In this document: positions 5,982 to 14,029 of the stretch, one piece after another
Numbering within the stretch: position 1 is the stretch's first letter
Layout: each line of letters starts with the position of its first letter
DNA from: an uncultured Desulfobacterales bacterium
GTDB taxonomy: Bacteria > Desulfobacterota > Dissulfuribacteria > Dissulfuribacterales > S140-46
NCBI GenBank assembly: GCA_964620365.1
Contig: CAZUIH010000002.1
Span: 1,598 to 65,597, forward strand
Length of the DNA: 64,000 nucleotides
Direction of reading: 5' to 3'
Notes under the pieces: model-generated
The model's input: only the letters and a program-made list of their open reading frames with translations
Told to the model about the DNA's origin: nothing
Databases searched by the model: none
Made by a program: the position numbers and the translations under genes

Positions 5982-6734
5982 TTAGCTTTCTGGTCGTACC
6001 ATGATTTTCTGGGCTAAACCAAGTCCAACGGCCAGCCTTGAACCCTTCACACTCAAAATCATAGGACCTGATTTATTCAATACCTCCACTTCGTCTCCGA
6101 CCACAAGGCCCATGTCCTGAAGCCTTCCGCGGACACTCTTTCCACCTGAGAAACTGACTATCTTGACCTTTTCACCTACCGCAGCCATGGACAGAGGCAT
6201 TGCTGAAACCTCTTTTTTCCTGCAACTCGAACAAAGTCCCAGCACAGTCAGCTTATGAAGTACAGGTTCAAATCCATGTTGCCTGGCAGCTCGCTTGGTC
6301 AACTCTCCGATATCGGATTCATTGAATTCCACAATCTTTCCACATCCTGTACAAAGCAGGTGATCATGATCACCTCCAAGATGAAGGTGCTCATACCAGG
6401 CCCCTGATCCGTTCAGCTGAGTCCGTTGCGCGATACCGTATCGGCAAAGGACCTCAAGGACGTCCCTGACCGTATCCAGGTCCACGGAATGACCGGCCTC
6501 AGCAAGCTTTTCCTGTATGAACTCAGGGGAAATATGCCCTTCGATGCCCAAAAAACAGTCAAGCACCAAATTACCATTTTCAGGCAAGACCTCGCCCGTC
6601 TGAGCCAACAACCTGTGAAAATCGTCCTTTTCCCGCTGATGAAGAGAATCAACTTCATCTTGGGTGCATGAGATGTCAACTGACTCACTCCCCTTACAAC
6701 AATCGTTCTCTTTTTTTCTCCTTCGGAACCACAT
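5982..6734 (-). CDS. Fur-family regulator fused to a C-terminal FeoA domain
   Basis: Fur-type metal and Zn sites (HLHLGGDHDHLLCTGCGKIVEF, GLCSSCRKK). These are followed by a FeoA-like SH3 segment (VGEKVKIVSFSGGKSVRGRLQDMGLVVGDEVEVLNKSGPMILSVKGSRLAVGLGLAQKIMV). Confidence 0.75.
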   Translation of the reverse strand: MWFRRRKKENDCCKGSESVDISCTQDEVDSLHQREKDDFHRLLAQTGEVLPENGNLVLDCFLGIEGHISPEFIQEKLAEAGHSVDLDTVRDVLEVLCRYGIAQRTQLNGSGAWYEHLHLGGDHDHLLCTGCGKIVEFNESDIGELTKRAARQHGFEPVLHKLTVLGLCSSCRKKEVSAMPLSMAAVGEKVKIVSFSGGKSVRGRLQDMGLVVGDEVEVLNKSGPMILSVKGSRLAVGLGLAQKIMVRPES

Positions 6735-9546: not shown

Positions 9547-10287
9547 TTACCTGTCTTGATACTTATTTTCAAAGTATGGACACAGTTCCATCCTGCAACC
9601 GTGGGGATGACGCTCTATGTGTCTGCAAGACGAAATGTTGGTCGAACCACCCAGATACAACCCAAAATTGGCCGCAAAAAATTTTACAGCCTCGTCAATG
9701 GCACTCCTCACATAAGCCTTACAGCAACTAGGCCCGGTAAGTTCCTTTATCGCCAGAGCCACAGAACATGCCATGTCCATGGCAAGATACTGTTCTTCAT
9801 TACTGCCACACTTAGAAGAAAGGATAACAGCCACACAGGCCCCCATGGCCACCACTATGCCGCAAACTCCCGTAAGGCCGCAATATCCGCTTATTGCCTG
9901 CCTTTGGATGCGGTCAAAAACCTCTTCCATGTGCGAATCACGCACTCTTATTGTACCTTCATTTTTTAGGGCCGCAATTAATGAACCCGCCGCGATATAC
10001 GCATGGTGGCACCCAAGCATTGGCAGAGAAGGAATGTTAATGAGATATTCAGAGATCTCAAACGGGTCAGCAGAATCAGATGCAAGGCAATATTCCCTTA
10101 TTACTCGCAGGGACTCTTTATTGTGACAATTTTCACACAAGAAATGTCCATTGGGACAGACCACATGGCCTGATTCTACCCTGCCACACCTGGTACACCT
10201 GTACTCGTGACCATATTCCAGGTAAGTAAGCGGGCTGCCACAGACCATGCAGTTATCCACTACCGCCATCCTGCCTGGCACTTTCAA
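9547..10287 (-). CDS. Cys-rich conserved hypothetical protein with N-terminal zinc ribbon (possibly DUF5714-like)
   Basis: CMVCGSPL...CTRCG...CPNGHFLCENC ribbon, followed by a Cys-rich helical body. The family name is from memory only. Confidence 0.45.
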   Translation of the reverse strand: MKVPGRMAVVDNCMVCGSPLTYLEYGHEYRCTRCGRVESGHVVCPNGHFLCENCHNKESLRVIREYCLASDSADPFEISEYLINIPSLPMLGCHHAYIAAGSLIAALKNEGTIRVRDSHMEEVFDRIQRQAISGYCGLTGVCGIVVAMGACVAVILSSKCGSNEEQYLAMDMACSVALAIKELTGPSCCKAYVRSAIDEAVKFFAANFGLYLGGSTNISSCRHIERHPHGCRMELCPYFENKYQDR

Positions 10288-10402
10288 GTCGTCTGGCTGG
10301 CCCAGCCTCTTTTTCTCATTGTTTCAGCAACCGGTCCGCCGCCTGTCAGGTTTCAAATTTAGAGACATCCTTTTTTGCATTTTTATAACCCGCACTTTTC
10401 AT

Positions 10403-11590
10403 TCAGAAGCCCGCAGCTACCTGGAAGGTCAAGATCAGGTGATCCTGGACAGGAAAGGGGCTACTTTTCTCTTCTTCCTGGTCCACGTAGGTTAAATCAA
10501 CACTAAGCTTGTTTGCCTGGCCCTTCAGGAAATAATTGACTCCAAGGCCGTAGATGTTAGTTGAATCCTTGTTATCGACACCTATACGTTCATAGTGTAT
10601 GAAAGGCTGTACACGCCCTACCCCAACCTTTCCAGGCAAGATATATCCTGATTTTACAGAAACGATGTCTGCGTCATCCCCTTGTTTTAAATTCGTATAA
10701 TTAAGAGAATTGGGGCCACTGTTGACGTTTATGTATGCCGCTTCCATTGTTATGGCACCGCCACTTGGATCCAAGGGATAATCCCAGTGTACATCAACGG
10801 TCCAAGCGGAATAATCATGTCTCGACCCGTCATAAACAAGGTCATTCTGCATATCGAAGCCCATTCCAAGGGCCAGCACCCGCTTTTTACCTAGATAGGT
10901 GCCTTTATTGAACCAGGAGGTCTCTGGCTCGAAAAAGGACCAGCTCAGGCGCCCGGCGTATCTTGGATTGTCGTCTGGATTCATGGTATCCTTATCTATA
11001 CCCTTGGCCACCATGAAACGGTATTGCAGTCTCTTGCCCAGCACGTTCCCCCAGAGGCAAACGCCATCGTCTCTACCAACCTTGCTGGGATAGAAAATAC
11101 CGCCCCTGATACCGCCCTGGCTCCAGTCAAGGTCAGTTGCCAGAAGACTTTTTGTCGACGTGGTACCGTAATTCCTTGTGATCGGCACATACATCCGTCC
11201 CAGTTGTAGCATAGCTGACTCATCCAAAAGCCTGACGGTAACCCAGCCGTCCCTCAATATGAGATTGGCCCCAAGCCCCAGGCTTGGCCTGTCATGCAGC
11301 TCATCCTGGTCCAACCTGTCCCCCGCGACGTGGAGAAAAAAATCAAGCCATGGAGTCGCAGAGGCCTTGGCGTAAAAATAGGCCCGCCTGATCATGGTAT
11401 CATACAGGGCTGTTTCTTGTTTTCCGTCGCCGTCACGGTCCTTGGCATCTTCGACATATTGGTACCAGGCCTGCCCCCAGAACCCCATTTCCAACGAAAG
11501 ATCGCCGTTTTTATAGATCTTAGTGGCCCATGCGTGGTCCGTACAGACAACAACCATAAATAAGAGTGTGACCCAAAACCGTATTTTCAT
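10403..11590 (-). CDS. outer-membrane beta-barrel porin
   Basis: ATG 11590 follows GGAGTGGAGGGAAG. Signal peptide MKIRFWVTLLFMVVVCTDHAWA, alternating beta-strand pattern, and C-terminal ...FQVAAGF ending in Phe. The track start at 11608 is probably too long. Confidence 0.6.
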   Translation of the reverse strand: MKIRFWVTLLFMVVVCTDHAWATKIYKNGDLSLEMGFWGQAWYQYVEDAKDRDGDGKQETALYDTMIRRAYFYAKASATPWLDFFLHVAGDRLDQDELHDRPSLGLGANLILRDGWVTVRLLDESAMLQLGRMYVPITRNYGTTSTKSLLATDLDWSQGGIRGGIFYPSKVGRDDGVCLWGNVLGKRLQYRFMVAKGIDKDTMNPDDNPRYAGRLSWSFFEPETSWFNKGTYLGKKRVLALGMGFDMQNDLVYDGSRHDYSAWTVDVHWDYPLDPSGGAITMEAAYINVNSGPNSLNYTNLKQGDDADIVSVKSGYILPGKVGVGRVQPFIHYERIGVDNKDSTNIYGLGVNYFLKGQANKLSVDLTYVDQEEEKSSPFPVQDHLILTFQVAAGF

Positions 11591-11633
11591 ATCTTCCCTC
11601 CACTCCATCCCAGAGCGGTTACCTCACCGCATC

Positions 11634-11969
11634 CTAATCAGGAATGGGCTCTGCCCCGTGCCTTATGACCGCCTTTAACATCTCATCTTCTGAGGCAACA
11701 CCATTTCCCGCACCCTTGTCTACGGCTATAATTTCATCGTCCACCTTCACGGCAGGCGAAGCGGGATCCTTCGGGCCCATGAGATCCTGGGGAGTGACAA
11801 TAAGCCTGACGCCGGTTACCTGTTCCAGAACGCTTACAGCGGCCTCAAGGTTTCGGGCTCACCGTCCTCCCATTGGAGACCTCGTATACAGCTTTAGATC
11901 AACAGCCTGGGCGGAGATGGTAATTAACAGAACCATCAAAAAAACAGTGAACGCTAAAAAATTTCTCAT
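11634..11969 (-). CDS. secreted thioredoxin-fold protein (MTH895/TM0996-like), candidate selenoprotein (UGA codon 37)
   Basis: ATG 11969 sits 8 nt after AAGGAGGT. Signal peptide MRNFLAFTVFLMVLLITISAQA. TGA at 11861..11859 in SPMGGR-U-ARNLEAAV. The frame then stays open for 74 more codons, including a cis-Pro-like PASPAVKVDDEII and VASEDEMLKAV as in glutaredoxin-like MTH895 proteins. Not present in the ORF track. Confidence 0.55.
11812..11828 (-). other. candidate SECIS-like hairpin for the 11634..11969 gene
   Basis: mRNA sense CUGG-AACAGGUAA-CCGG (4 bp stem including one G.U). It starts 30 nt after the UGA, the same spacing as the 2863..2847 hairpin. Confidence 0.3.
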
Positions 11970-12141: not shown

Positions 12142-12296
12142 CACATCTGTATGGTTTTAAAAACCAGGCTGTAAACATGCCGACGACCAAAAGGTGACCT
12201 CCAAAAAGCTAAATCTTAGAGGTCCCAATAAGAGACAACACCCAAAGAGCGTCATCGAAAATCCACCTGTGGTCAGGATCGAAGCAGTAGACATAT

Positions 12297-12737
12297 TCAA
12301 TTGTCTCCGCTTCTTTTGAGTAAAAAATGGACACTCTCTTCAGGCAACTTCAGCTGCCTTGCGATTTCCGTAGTCGAGGCACCTGGATTTTCCTTGATAA
12401 AATGTTCACACTCGGCTCGCACCATATCCAGCCAATCCTGGAACAAGACCACAAGTTCCTCCGAGGTTTCGGACGAAAGCTCATGGAGTATTCCCATTGC
12501 CCCGTAAAGATGATGACACATGTTTTGTGGATCGACACCTTCATCCATGCATTTGGCAATTCAGAGCTGAACCATACTGCCGATCTTGTCTTTTCCTGTT
12601 TGCCCCACCATCTCCACTACAAAGCTTCTTTTTTCTTCTTCAGAAAGAATGGAAAAGATCTCTTTGGCCAGATGGAGTAATAGATCCTTGCCCTCTTCCA
12701 AGGTCAATGACCTGATAATGTCACCCCATTTATCCAT
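12297..12737 (-). CDS. small helical protein with C-terminal HTH-like segment, candidate selenoprotein (UGA codon 59, U-x-x-x-C)
   Basis: ATG 12737 overlaps the arsR stop (TAATG). The frame is identical to track ORF 12297..12548 (189 nt = 63 codons upstream). The single TGA is at 12563..12561, in GSMVQL-U-IAKCMDEG. There is no SD in front of the internal ATG 12548. Confidence 0.5.
12528..12547 (-). other. candidate SECIS-like hairpin for the 12297..12737 gene
   Basis: mRNA sense UGGAU-GA-AGGUG-UCG-AUCCA: 5 bp outer stem plus 2 inner pairs, with an AGGUG apical loop. The stem starts 13 nt after the UGA and GGU lies about 22 nt after it. Confidence 0.4.
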
Positions 12738-13111
12738 TATTCCTCTCCTTTCGTTTGCTCTTGCTCCTGGATTATTCTCTTCACTTCAGCCACGAGAGCT
12801 GATTCGTCCAGGTCTGGATTTATTTCAGCGACCGCCCTTCCAAGAAATTTCAAAAGTCCTTTTGAGGCCAACCGGTAGTAGATAAATGGTCCTCTTCGTT
12901 CACTGACCAAGATATTCGCGTACCTGAATTCCTTTAGATGATGAGACACAAGGGGCTGAGACAATCCAAGACGATTGACTATCTCTGTCACAGAAAGAAA
13001 ACCACATTTCTCCAACGCGATACAAAGGATAATTTTTAATCGATTTTCATCGGATAGCGACTTGAAAAAATGCGCAAGCTCCTTGATAACGATTTTATTT
13101 GACCAGCCCAT
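12737..13111 (-). CDS. ArsR/SmtB-family transcriptional regulator
   Basis: wHTH segment LSVTEIVNRLGLSQPLVSHHLKEFRYANILVSERRGPFIYYRL; 124 aa. Confidence 0.85.
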   Translation of the reverse strand: MGWSNKIVIKELAHFFKSLSDENRLKIILCIALEKCGFLSVTEIVNRLGLSQPLVSHHLKEFRYANILVSERRGPFIYYRLASKGLLKFLGRAVAEINPDLDESALVAEVKRIIQEQEQTKGEE

Positions 13112-13270
13112 AAAATAAATATATCAATGTACATTTATATGTCAATGACGCAGTTGACCCTTCTATACGACAGGTCTTTGGAACAGGACAAGTTGTGCGA
13201 TTCAACTTGACTTGCCACTGACCCACCAGTAGTAACTTATAGTTACGTGAATGTATATTGCTGGAGCTTT

Positions 13271-13573: not shown

Positions 13574-14029
13574 ATGAACAAGAAATCTGAACTCCAGGTG
13601 TTCCGGGAATACCTGCAAAAACATAAGCTTAGATATACCAGGGAACGTGAACAGATCATAAAGGAAATCTTCTCAACCCATGACCATTTCGATGTTGAGG
13701 CCATATATTTATCCATGAGGCAGAAAGGAATCCAGGTATCAAAGGCCTCTATCTACCGGCTGATTCCCTTGTTGATCGAAACTGGACTCATACAGGAAGT
13801 CTACTATGAAGATGGCCACATGCACTATGAACATGTGTATGGCCATGAACATCATTGTCATCTACGATGTACCAGGTGTAGAAAAATCGAAGAGTTCGTT
13901 GATCGCAGACTCCAAGAGATAGAAAAAGACCTGGCTGAAAAGTTTGGTTATGAAATAATAGATCGAAAGCTTGAAGTAAAAGGTCTATGTCCTGAATGCA
14001 GGGAAAAGGTTAAAAACAAAAACAGCTAG
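13574..14029 (+). CDS. Fur-family metalloregulator (Fur/Zur/PerR type not resolved)
   Basis: HEHHCHLRCTRCRKIEEF and C-terminal CPECREK zinc-site motifs; 151 aa. Confidence 0.85.
   Translation: MNKKSELQVFREYLQKHKLRYTREREQIIKEIFSTHDHFDVEAIYLSMRQKGIQVSKASIYRLIPLLIETGLIQEVYYEDGHMHYEHVYGHEHHCHLRCTRCRKIEEFVDRRLQEIEKDLAEKFGYEIIDRKLEVKGLCPECREKVKNKNS

What the first reader, a model, noticed from the sequence alone, without database searches (positions are those of the whole stretch)
12297..12737. ArsR-coupled small protein split by UGA (U-x-x-x-C)
The 83-aa track ORF (12297..12548) has no SD.

Sixty-three codons upstream, in the same frame, an ATG (12737) overlaps the arsR stop codon (TAATG). This is a classic translational coupling arrangement. 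The only stop between them is TGA at 12563..12561, in GSMVQL-U-IAKC-MDEG.

A hairpin with an AGGUG loop starts 13 nt after the UGA. That places GGU about 22 nt downstream, close to the E. coli fdhF geometry.

The C-terminus (GASTTEIARQLKLPEESVHFLLKRS) looks like a short wHTH. This may therefore be a Sec-containing sensor or partner of the ArsR regulator. I do not recognise the family.
Basis: partly seen in the sequence, partly recalled or inferred. Interest (0 to 1): 0.7.

Follow-up and report, generated by a model that had tools for sequence, protein, structure and literature searches.

The report
Divergent TsoA selenoprotein beside ArsR regulator

Summary
ATG 12737 overlaps the arsR stop (TAATG). 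The only stop before 12297 is TGA 12563..12561, inside GSMVQL-U-IAKC-MDEG.

The fused protein matches NCBIfam NF045695, "LULAXC motif selenoprotein TsoA" (E 6e-36, 124 bits, below the 170-bit cutoff). The regulator matches TsoR. The family was defined by Haft & Tolstoy 2025.

Among 144 distinct homologous sequences, 142 have TGA at this codon, one has TGG and one has AGA. None has a Cys codon.

A 6-bp hairpin with an AGGUG loop starts 14 nt after the UGA. It is paired in 99.9% of cells, and one pair switches between A-U (79) and G-C (62). Synonymous sites in it are almost frozen. It is a SECIS-type element.

A TsoR gene lies directly upstream in 155 of 157 loci. The window belongs to a minority LUIAKC branch that lacks the usual tsoB and tsoC. 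An ExtI-like porin and an MbdU-like gene follow instead.

The model is all-helical. Sec59 and Cys63 lie one turn apart, and the C-terminus is HTH-like. TsoR has no conserved cysteines.

Most likely role: TsoA is the selenol/thiol sensing partner of TsoR. This is inferred, not shown.

Verdict: a real selenoprotein gene, mis-split in public annotation, and a new divergent member of a known family.

The parts
12297..12737 (-). tsoA-like gene: one 146-codon ORF (58 codons + UGA/Sec + 87 codons + stop). Public records call it as two 'hypothetical' ORFs of 58 and 83 aa.
   Evidence: NF045695 TsoA E=5.8e-36, 124 bits, profile positions 4-139 of 144. Homologues keep the frame across the TGA.
12561..12563 (-). 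In-frame UGA read as selenocysteine (residue 59), in L-U-I-A-K-C. Cys63 is the codon at 12549..12551.
   Evidence: TGA at 167 of 169 sites, or 142 of 144 distinct sequences. There is one TGG, one AGA and no Cys codon. U59 and C63 are invariant or nearly so.
12529..12546 (-). SECIS-type hairpin GGAUGA-AGGUG-UCG(A)UCC: 6 bp with a bulged A, loop at 12536..12540, starting 14 nt after the UGA.
   Evidence: 99.9% of 864 cells are paired. Pair 32-45 is AU 79, GC 62, GU 3, unpaired 0. Slid controls pair 10-50%, and 0 of 500 shuffles reach the observed values. Third-position entropy is 0.06-0.17 bits at codons +6 to +9, against 0.8-2.0 elsewhere. The hairpin energy is -3.2 kcal/mol here, the weakest genotype.
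12742..12751 (-). Shine-Dalgarno sequence AAAGGAGAGG for tsoA, lying inside the 3' end of tsoR. The TAATG stop/start overlap is at 12735..12739.
   Evidence: sequence reading. The spacing to the ATG is 4 nt.
12737..13111 (-). tsoR-like ArsR/SmtB-family regulator (124 aa).
   Evidence: Pfam HTH_5 35.2 bits, above the cutoff of 22. NF033788 71.4 bits, above 55; NF045707 TsoR 88 bits, below 115. A TsoR homologue lies directly upstream of tsoA in 155 of 157 loci with enough flank.
13118..13145 (-). Sigma-70-type promoter TTGACA-16-TATATT (11 of 12 matches, TG-extended). It ends 7 nt before the tsoR ATG, so the mRNA may be leaderless. The spacer holds a 20-nt palindrome ATATAAATGTACATTGATAT (as read on the minus, gene, strand; 13121..13140), a candidate TsoR operator.
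   Evidence: The palindrome is also present in strain L003. The operator role is inferred.
12306..12461 (-). Codons 93-144: a long helix plus a helix-turn-helix-like C-terminal module. The same module occurs in non-Sec, Met-rich relatives.
   Evidence: AF2 pLDDT 87-91 in this part. Foldseek finds local matches to DeoR, Lrp/AsnC, FapR and LexA HTH domains at rmsd 0.6-1.2 A over 36-46 residues, with E values of only 0.2-1. Pfam HTH_24 E=0.0036, below the cutoff.
12196..12224 (-). Terminator-like hairpin 73-100 nt after the tsoA stop, inside a 45-codon hydrophobic ORF (12157..12294). It may end a tsoR-tsoA bicistron.
   Evidence: The number of such sites is not above the shuffled expectation, so this is weak evidence.
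11634..11969 (-). Next gene: a secreted 111-aa protein with an in-frame UGA (11859..11861) in SPMGGR-U-ARN and its own strong SD. It is faintly TsoC-like.
   Evidence: NF045708 TsoC E=0.011, 15.7 bits, below the cutoff of 45. 37% identity to TsoC over the C-terminal 43 aa only. No homologues were found.
10403..11608 (-). ExtI-like outer-membrane porin (401 aa).
   Evidence: NF040900 'selenite/tellurite reduction operon porin ExtI' E=2.4e-39, 135 bits, below the cutoff of 150.
9547..10380 (-). MbdU-like DUF5714 metal-binding protein. The plain ORF is 9547..10287. A possible N-terminal extension runs through an in-frame UGA (10324..10326) in a G-C-U motif.
   Evidence: NF045648 E=3e-100, 336 bits, below the cutoff of 600, matching profile positions 37-269 of 468 only. 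Pfam DUF5714 E=9e-43.

Best explanation
One gene, tsoA-like, runs from ATG 12737 to the stop at 12297 on the minus strand. Its UGA at 12563..12561 is decoded as selenocysteine with the help of a small SECIS hairpin 14 nt downstream (12546..12529). The product is a 146-residue cytoplasmic, all-helical protein. Sec59 and Cys63 lie one helical turn apart, and the C-terminus is HTH-like.

The gene is transcribed together with the ArsR/SmtB-type regulator tsoR, and its translation is coupled to tsoR's. Transcription starts at a promoter whose spacer carries a palindrome.

Proposed mechanism (inferred). TsoR has no conserved cysteine or other ligand set, so TsoA acts as its ligand- or redox-sensing partner. 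The Sec-x3-Cys pair either forms a reversible selenenylsulfide or binds a soft chalcogen or metalloid species such as Se, S, Te or a thiophilic metal. That change is passed on through the C-terminal module, by contact with TsoR or DNA, and alters repression of the operon.

Shown here: a single ORF, Sec-codon conservation, the SECIS element, pairing with TsoR, and family membership at the homology level.

Inferred: Sec insertion in vivo, the chemistry of the U-x3-C site, and the regulatory partnership.
For: Identity:
- NF045695 TsoA E=5.8e-36 over profile positions 4-139 of 144.
- Relatives L005 and L006 pass the curated cutoff at 200 and 204 bits, and align end to end with the window protein.

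Sec:
- TGA at 167 of 169 sites, and no Cys codon.

SECIS:
- 99.9% of cells paired, an A-U/G-C switch of 79/62 with no mismatches, and low slid controls.
- Synonymous sites frozen at codons +6 to +9.

Coding status of the upstream half:
-.
- A natural strain (L003, 93% nt identity) carries an uninterrupted 146-codon ORF with TGG.

Partnership with TsoR:
- TsoR is directly upstream in 155 of 157 loci, with gaps of 9-25 nt or an overlap.
- No Cys column in TsoR exceeds 43% occupancy. Zero-Cys TsoRs are frequent (27 of the 116 in the two largest classes), and include L001, L005 and L006.
- Non-Sec relatives share TsoA's C-terminal module but have Met-rich N-termini. They also sit just after an ArsR gene, in 5 of 6 contigs.

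Structure:
- All-alpha; U59 and C63 lie in helix 48-65; the C-terminus is HTH-like.

Chalcogen context:
- Canonical loci continue into TsoB (rhodanese/DsbD type) and TsoC.
- Other loci carry DsrE, CGGC, TauE and AIRS-domain genes.
- The window carries an ExtI-like porin.
Against: - The score is below NCBIfam's equivalog cutoff (124 against 170 bits).
- The literal motif differs: LUIAKC rather than LULAxC.
- tsoB and tsoC are absent from the window.
- No Sec machinery (selA/B/C/D) lies in the 64 kb, so the host's Sec competence is inferred from three UGA-interrupted genes and from the family's behaviour.
- The window's hairpin is the weakest genotype (-3.2 kcal/mol). It is not the minimum-energy fold of the isolated RNA, and folding z-scores are not significant.
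- No experiment on any TsoA is known to me, and the defining paper could not be read.
- The HTH assignment rests on sub-threshold sequence hits and on local fold matches with E of 0.2 or more.
- Nothing shows that TsoA touches TsoR or DNA.
- Two natural variants (TGG and AGA) show that Sec can be lost.
Confidence: 0.8

Rival explanations
1. TsoA is a selenium/sulfur carrier rather than a regulator. The Sec-x3-Cys site would hold a chalcogen atom as a selenotrisulfide or perselenide-like adduct. It would pass that atom to, or receive it from, TsoB (rhodanese/DsbD), TsoC, DsrE-like proteins or SelD-like enzymes. The HTH-like module would then be only a scaffold.
For: - Neighbours are typical sulfur/selenium-relay proteins. 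These include the rhodanese domain of TsoB and the thioredoxin-like TsoC, and DsrE, DrsE_2, CGGC, TauE and AIRS/AIRS_C genes.
- An ExtI-like porin lies in the window, and ExtI is linked to selenite/tellurite reduction (PMC5877670).
- No Cys forms exist, which suggests selenium-specific chemistry.
Against: - The one universally conserved neighbour is the regulator TsoR (155 of 157), not any relay enzyme. tsoB and tsoC follow the LUIAKC branch in 0 of 4 loci.
- Met-rich, non-Sec relatives keep the ArsR pairing.
- The best-conserved and most confidently modelled part is HTH-like.
Confidence: 0.3
2. The UGA itself is the sensor. Full-length TsoA is made only when Sec-tRNA(Sec), and hence selenium, is available; otherwise translation stops after 58 codons. 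TsoA abundance would then report selenium supply to TsoR, which gates a selenoprotein-rich operon.
For: - No Cys codon at 169 sites. By contrast, a review states that nearly all selenoenzymes have more abundant Cys homologues (PMC13188914).
- The canonical operon encodes further Sec proteins: TsoB with two Sec and TsoC with one.
- tsoA is tightly coupled to a regulator that lacks ligand residues.
Against: - Cys63 (invariant) and Cys74 (at least 90% conserved) around the Sec argue for real active-site chemistry.
- The TGG and AGA variants would abolish such sensing, yet they sit in otherwise intact genes.
- In this window, tsoA is not followed by tsoB or tsoC.
- There is no direct evidence.
Confidence: 0.12
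3. The UGA is an ordinary stop. The locus would encode a 58-aa peptide and a separate 83-aa protein, or a decayed gene, as in the public annotation.
For: - Public gene calls split it.
- No Sec machinery is visible in the window.
- The hairpin is thermodynamically weak.
Against: - The same in-frame TGA is kept in 142 of 144 distinct sequences across some 311 species genomes.
- The downstream part has no SD.
- The hairpin shows covariation and frozen synonymous sites.
- Both halves match one curated HMM contiguously.
- L003 carries an uninterrupted ORF.
Confidence: 0.03

Closest known systems
TsoA, 'LULAXC motif selenoprotein' (NCBIfam NF045695; Haft & Tolstoy 2025, mSystems 10:e0141724, as listed in review PMC13188914)
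   Same: - Homologous over the whole length (E 6e-36).
- Sec at the same position, with Cys four residues later.
- The same MDEGVDPxxMC segment, the same SECIS hairpin and the same upstream ArsR-type partner.
- The relatives found here are almost all from Thermodesulfobacteriota.
   Different: - Scores 124 bits, below the 170-bit equivalog cutoff.
- The motif is L-U-I-A-K-C.
- The C-terminus is shorter and lacks the KLxREGKI tail.
- The start overlaps the tsoR stop.
- It belongs to a minority branch (9 of about 169 sites) that is never followed by tsoB or tsoC.
Tso 'three selenoprotein operon' (tsoR-tsoA-tsoB-tsoC), e.g. locus L015
   Same: The tsoR-tsoA pair, in the same order and orientation, and a neighbourhood rich in further UGA-containing genes.
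   Different: - There is no tsoB (rhodanese/DsbD, UxxxxU) anywhere in the 64 kb.
- The next Sec gene is secreted and only faintly TsoC-like.
- An ExtI-like porin and an MbdU-like gene follow instead.
E. coli fdhF-type bacterial SECIS (from general knowledge of the SelB-dependent recoding element)
   Same: - A stem-loop inside the coding sequence shortly after the UGA.
- A conserved GGU in the apical loop and a bulged base.
- The loop G lies about 24 nt from the U of UGA, against 23 in fdhF numbering.
   Different: - The stem is much shorter (6 bp).
- The spacer is 14 nt rather than 11 nt.
- The loop is 5 nt, AGGUG.
- SelB binding was not tested, and no Rfam model exists to score it.
ArsR-ArsD pairs of ars operons (analogy from general knowledge, not tested here)
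   Same: A small cysteine-based metalloid-binding protein is encoded next to an ArsR-family repressor and takes part in controlling or servicing the same operon.
   Different: - No sequence or fold relationship was found.
- TsoA uses Sec and has an HTH-like module.
- TsoR, unlike ArsR, lacks conserved sensing cysteines.

Membership tests
TsoA (NCBIfam NF045695, equivalog) | Whole-protein HMM score at or above the curated cutoff (170 bits) | tested here: not met
   124 bits, E=5.8e-36, profile positions 4-139 of 144. Controls L005 and L006 score 199.9 and 203.7; L007 132.9; L001 113.4; L004 86.4.
TsoA (NCBIfam NF045695, equivalog) | Selenocysteine (in-frame UGA) at the second motif position, with Cys four residues downstream | tested here: met
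   UGA at 12563..12561 and Cys63 at 12551..12549. The column is TGA at 167 of 169 sites, and C63 is invariant.
TsoA (NCBIfam NF045695, equivalog) | Literal motif L-U-L-A-x-C | tested here: not met
   The window has L-U-I-A-K-C. The same variant occurs at 9 sites, the window among them. Other motif counts: LULAEC 104, LULATC 33, RUIAEC 15.
TsoA (NCBIfam NF045695, equivalog) | Conserved SECIS-type hairpin after the UGA | tested here: met
   The window carries the U.G wobble variant of the stem.
Tso operon (tsoR-tsoA-tsoB-tsoC) | ArsR/SmtB regulator TsoR immediately upstream of tsoA | tested here: met
   Adjacent and overlapping by 1 nt. NF045707 TsoR scores 88 bits, below its cutoff of 115, but NF033788 scores 71.4, above 55. 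The adjacency holds in 155 of 157 loci.
Tso operon (tsoR-tsoA-tsoB-tsoC) | tsoB (rhodanese/DsbD-like, UxxxxU) and tsoC (NEPxGxxU) downstream | tested here: not met
   tblastn with L015 TsoB and TsoC finds nothing in the window (E above 0.7). The secreted U-protein scores only 15.7 bits against TsoC, whose cutoff is 45. The LUIAKC branch has tsoB or tsoC in 0 of 4 loci.
ArsR/SmtB metalloregulators (for the partner gene) | Winged-helix HTH_5 domain above the Pfam/NCBIfam thresholds | tested here: met
   PF01022 35.2 bits, above 22. NF033788 71.4 bits, above 55.
ArsR/SmtB metalloregulators (for the partner gene) | A conserved metal or metalloid ligand set (alpha3 Cys pair or alpha5 His/Asp/Glu site) | tested here: not met
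   In 142 TsoR sequences no Cys column exceeds 43% occupancy, and zero-Cys TsoRs are frequent (27 of the 116 in the two largest classes). Only the recognition-helix SHH is conserved.
Bacterial selenoprotein gene (SelB/SECIS-dependent recoding) | Actual Sec insertion, and Sec machinery (selA, selB, selC, selD) in the genome | not testable with these tools
   The 64-kb window holds no tRNA, and none of the ten large ORFs screened matches SelA, SelB or SelD. The rest of the source genome is not available.

The most novel reading that the evidence does not exclude
ArsR-type TsoR, which has no sensing residues of its own, works as a two-protein switch with TsoA-type partners. These partners share one HTH-like C-terminal module but carry interchangeable soft-ligand N-terminal halves, either Sec-x3-Cys or Met-rich repeats.

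In the Sec version, the obligatory UGA (no Cys form at 169 sites) would also make synthesis of the partner depend on selenium supply. The switch would then read selenium status and a chalcogen or redox signal together. If so, it would be the first selenoprotein to serve as a subunit of a transcriptional regulator.
Probability: 0.15. Interest if true: 0.75.

Novelty: new member of a known kind. Interest (0 to 1): 0.4.

Why it matters
For annotation, this gene and about 570 database relatives are stored as truncated 'hypothetical' fragments or as code-4 'Trp' artefacts. Divergent members like this one also fall below the curated TsoA cutoff, so they stay mis-split.

For biology, TsoA is known only from comparative genomics. 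This locus shows that the tsoR-tsoA pair can exist without tsoB and tsoC. That points to the pair as the functional core, and to a regulatory or sensing role.

Three observations together give a concrete, testable hypothesis for how a selenoprotein could take part in gene regulation:

- The family has no Cys forms at all.
- The partner regulator has no conserved cysteines.
- Met-rich cousins keep the same ArsR pairing.

Tried and rejected
- **Fused protein in the exhaustive HMMER search and in structure prediction.** I worked around this with P0001 (the 83-aa part), P0004 (the natural TGG variant) and database rows.
- **First genome scan.** With a two-sequence alignment it found nothing. A six-sequence alignment then found 311 relatives.
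- **Full-length database proteins with W at the site.** I considered these as possible Trp homologues. Four of the eight (P0030, P0041, P0046, P0047) were checked against their DNA. In each the codon is TGA, so the W comes from a code-4 translation. The other four were not checked. Only L003 has a real TGG.
- **Thermodynamic folding.** Minimum-energy folds and z-scores do not single out the hairpin, so I relied on covariation and synonymous-site conservation instead.
- **Rfam.** No match in the operon.
- **Foldseek against the PDB.** No whole-protein match (best E = 0.2).
- **The defining paper.** Haft & Tolstoy 2025 is not held in the library. What I say about it comes from the review PMC13188914 and from NCBIfam names.
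- **Homologue search for the secreted U-protein.** Nothing found.
- **Sec machinery or tsoB in the window.** Neither was found.

Full report
**Observation.** On the minus strand an ArsR-like ORF (12737..13111) ends in TAA. That stop shares one base with the next ATG (TAATG, ATG at 12737..12735). From this ATG, 58 codons run to TGA 12563..12561. The frame then continues for 87 more codons to the stop at 12297, through the ATG (12548) of the 83-aa ORF that gene callers report. The joined product is 146 aa and reads GSMVQL-U-IAKC-MDEG around the UGA. The internal ATG has no SD. The upstream ATG does: AAAGGAGAGG, 4 nt before it, inside the end of the ArsR gene. The record that holds this sequence annotates the two pieces separately and gives them no names.

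**What it is.** With U written as C, the fused protein matches NCBIfam NF045695, "LULAXC motif selenoprotein TsoA". The match has E=5.8e-36 and 124 bits, and covers profile positions 4-139 of 144. The neighbour matches NF045707, "ArsR/SmtB-type metalloregulator TsoR", at 88 bits. Both scores are below the curated equivalog cutoffs of 170 and 115.

The review PMC13188914 lists TsoA (LULAxC), TsoB (rhodanese/DsbD-like, UxxxxU), TsoC (NEPxGxxU), TsoX and TsoY as families from Haft & Tolstoy 2025, and calls Tso a "three selenoprotein operon". I could not obtain that primary paper.

**Homologues and the Sec codon.** Public protein databases hold almost only C-terminal fragments of 83-91 aa. The DNA behind these fragments shows the same three-part layout each time: ArsR gene, 58-codon ORF, 12-nt gap, then the rest.

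Reading through the gap gives these motifs:
- LULAEC in L005 and L006. Fused, these score 200 and 204 bits and pass the TsoA cutoff.
- RUIAEC in L007.
- HUIQTC in L004.
- LUIAKC in L001.

Scans with a pattern that lies downstream of the Sec codon found 528 metagenomic loci and 311 species-representative genomes. Nearly all the genomes are Thermodesulfobacteriota.

In the 166 loci kept, plus the window, the aligned codon is TGA at 167 sites, TGG at one (L003) and AGA at one (L158). It is never a Cys codon. Counted as distinct 76-nt sequences, that is 142 of 144 with TGA.

Eight full-length database proteins with "W" at the site looked like Trp homologues. I checked four of them (P0030, P0041, P0046, P0047) against their DNA. 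Each has TGA, so the W is a code-4 artefact. The other four were not checked.

L003 is a separate strain: 93.4% nt identity, with 10 synonymous and 3 nonsynonymous changes in tsoA. Its TGG is real, which gives an uninterrupted 146-codon ORF.

The upstream 58 codons evolve as coding sequence. There are no indels. Against L001, differences by codon position are 18/9/27, with 18 synonymous and 19 nonsynonymous changes, the same pattern as the downstream half.

**SECIS.** A hairpin starts 14 nt after the UGA: GGAUGA-AGGUG-UCG(A)UCC (12546..12529).
- On 144 distinct sequences, 99.9% of cells pair.
- Pair 32-45 is A-U in 79 sequences, G-C in 62, G.U in 3, and never mismatched.
- Sliding the 3' partners by 1-3 columns drops pairing to 10-50%.
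- No shuffle out of 500 reaches the observed values.

There is also evidence that does not depend on any structure model. Third-position entropy at codons +6 to +9 is 0.06-0.17 bits, against 0.8-2.0 bits at comparable sites elsewhere in the gene. The third position of codon +10 is the partner that co-varies.

The geometry is close to the E. coli fdhF element as I know it: the loop GGU begins 24 nt from the U of UGA.

The evidence is comparative, not thermodynamic. The window's stem is the weakest genotype (-3.2 kcal/mol), and minimum-energy folds and z-scores do not pick it out. Rfam has no matching model.

**Context.** A TsoR homologue lies directly upstream of tsoA in 155 of 157 loci that have enough flank. 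The usual gap is 9-25 nt with a GGAG-type SD. A true stop/start overlap occurs in the window, L003 and L001, and in a handful of loci from other branches.

The canonical operon continues as tsoB then tsoC, for example in L015. The window belongs to a minority LUIAKC branch (9 sites). In that branch tsoB and tsoC follow in 0 of 4 loci, against 5/5 for RUIAEC and 22/25 for LULATC. No tsoB exists anywhere in the 64 kb.

Other members of the LUIAKC branch are followed by DsrE, CGGC and TauE genes. L005 is followed by DrsE_2, DsrE and an AIRS-domain gene.

In the window, the genes after tsoA are:
- a 45-codon hydrophobic ORF that contains a terminator-like hairpin;
- a secreted 111-aa protein with its own in-frame UGA (SPMGGR-U), only faintly TsoC-like;
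- an ExtI-like porin at 135 bits, below the cutoff of 150. ExtI is implicated in selenite/tellurite reduction in Geobacter (PMC5877670);
- an MbdU-like DUF5714 gene.

Upstream of tsoR there is a strong promoter, TTGACA-16-TATATT. It ends 7 nt before the ATG, and its spacer contains a 20-nt palindrome.

**Structure and mechanism.** The AlphaFold model built with 51 database rows has mean pLDDT 75, and 87-91 in the C-terminal part. It consists of eight helices. Sec59 and Cys63 sit in one helix (48-65), so they lie one turn apart on the same face. Foldseek finds no whole-protein analogue. It repeatedly matches 36-46 C-terminal residues to HTH DNA-binding domains (DeoR, Lrp/AsnC, FapR, LexA) at 0.6-1.2 A, though with E of 0.2 or more.

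TsoR has no conserved cysteine: the highest column occupancy is 43%, and zero-Cys TsoRs are frequent (27 of the 116 in the two largest classes). It has no other ligand set either.

The exhaustive HMMER search also found non-Sec relatives. They share TsoA's C-terminal module, including the "MC" cysteine, but their N-terminal halves are Met-rich repeats. These too lie 20-57 nt downstream of an ArsR gene.

Taken together, I think the most likely reading is this. The tsoR-tsoA pair is the functional core. TsoA supplies a selenol/thiol site, through a reversible Se-S bond or by binding a soft chalcogen or metalloid, to a regulator that cannot sense by itself. I put this at about 40% among functional models.

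The alternatives are a chalcogen-carrier role (about 30%) and a selenium-supply gauge that acts through UGA recoding (about 12%). None of these has been tested by experiment.

**Novelty and verdict.** However, the kind of element is already catalogued (TsoA/TsoR, 2025). The window holds a divergent member that escapes the curated model and is mis-split in public annotation. It lacks the tsoB and tsoC genes that gave the operon its name.

The less ordinary points are:
- The family has no Cys forms at all.
- The partner regulator has no conserved cysteines.
- Met-rich cousins keep the same ArsR pairing.

I cannot say whether Haft & Tolstoy already noted any of these. Interest 0.4; new member of a known kind.

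Noticed in passing
window 11634..11969 (-), UGA at 11859..11861: A secreted 111-aa protein (signal peptide, strong AAGGAGG SD) is interrupted by an in-frame UGA in SPMGGR-U-ARN. Its layout resembles the single-Sec thioredoxin-like TsoC (NEPxGxxU). However, it scores only 15.7 bits against TsoC, and no homologues were found.
   Followed up: partly
window 9547..10380 (-), possible UGA at 10324..10326: An MbdU-like DUF5714 gene matches only profile positions 37-269 of the 468-position 'metal-binding double selenoprotein MbdU' model. An in-frame upstream extension through a UGA would add a G-C-U motif, which resembles the 'CU' motif listed for MbdU in PMC13188914.
   Followed up: partly
window 10403..11608 (-): A 401-aa outer-membrane porin related to ExtI, the Geobacter porin implicated in selenite/tellurite reduction. 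It scores 135 bits, just under the 150-bit cutoff. It sits between two UGA-containing genes.
   Followed up: partly
L003:676-678 and L158:2620-2622: Two natural tsoA alleles replace the Sec codon by a single-base change. One is TGG (Trp), in a 93%-identical strain from a hydrothermal-vent metagenome. The other is AGA (Arg), in a Desulfocapsaceae MAG that still has tsoB and tsoC. No allele has Cys. It is unresolved whether these are functional variants, decaying genes or assembly errors.
   Followed up: partly
L170:4629-5570, L171, L172:4636-5606, L173, L174: Non-Sec proteins with TsoA's C-terminal module but Met-rich (MMxxMM) N-terminal halves (P0014, P0039 and others) also lie directly after an ArsR-family gene. 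The ArsR + TsoA-module pair is therefore wider than the selenoprotein family.
   Followed up: partly
window 13118..13145 (-), palindrome 13121..13140: A near-consensus sigma-70 promoter ends 7 nt before the tsoR ATG, which suggests a leaderless tsoR mRNA. A 20-nt palindrome fills its spacer and is a candidate TsoR operator. It is conserved in L003.
   Followed up: partly
window 12196..12224 (-): A terminator-like hairpin followed by a T-rich tail lies 73-100 nt after the tsoA stop, inside a 45-codon hydrophobic ORF (12157..12294). It raises the possibility that tsoR-tsoA is a separate bicistronic unit.
   Followed up: no
L090 (5160 and 9894), L133 (2484 and 5175), L147 (4314 and 5175): Some genomes carry two tsoA copies within a few kb of each other. 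In L090, the one locus examined for this, each copy has its own upstream tsoR.
   Followed up: no
window 13574..14029 (+) and 5982..6734 (-): Two Fur-family regulator genes flank the cluster. One is divergently oriented about 460 bp from tsoR. The other is 250 aa, with a long N-terminal extension before the Fur domain.
   Followed up: no
database proteins P0030, P0041-P0047, P0048-P0159: Of 575 database relatives, almost all are C-terminal fragments of about 86-91 aa named 'hypothetical' or 'MarR family regulator'. The few full-length entries carry W at the Sec site. Four of the eight were checked against their DNA, and in each the codon is TGA, translated under code 4 on a short contig. This is a systematic annotation artefact for the family.
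   Followed up: yes
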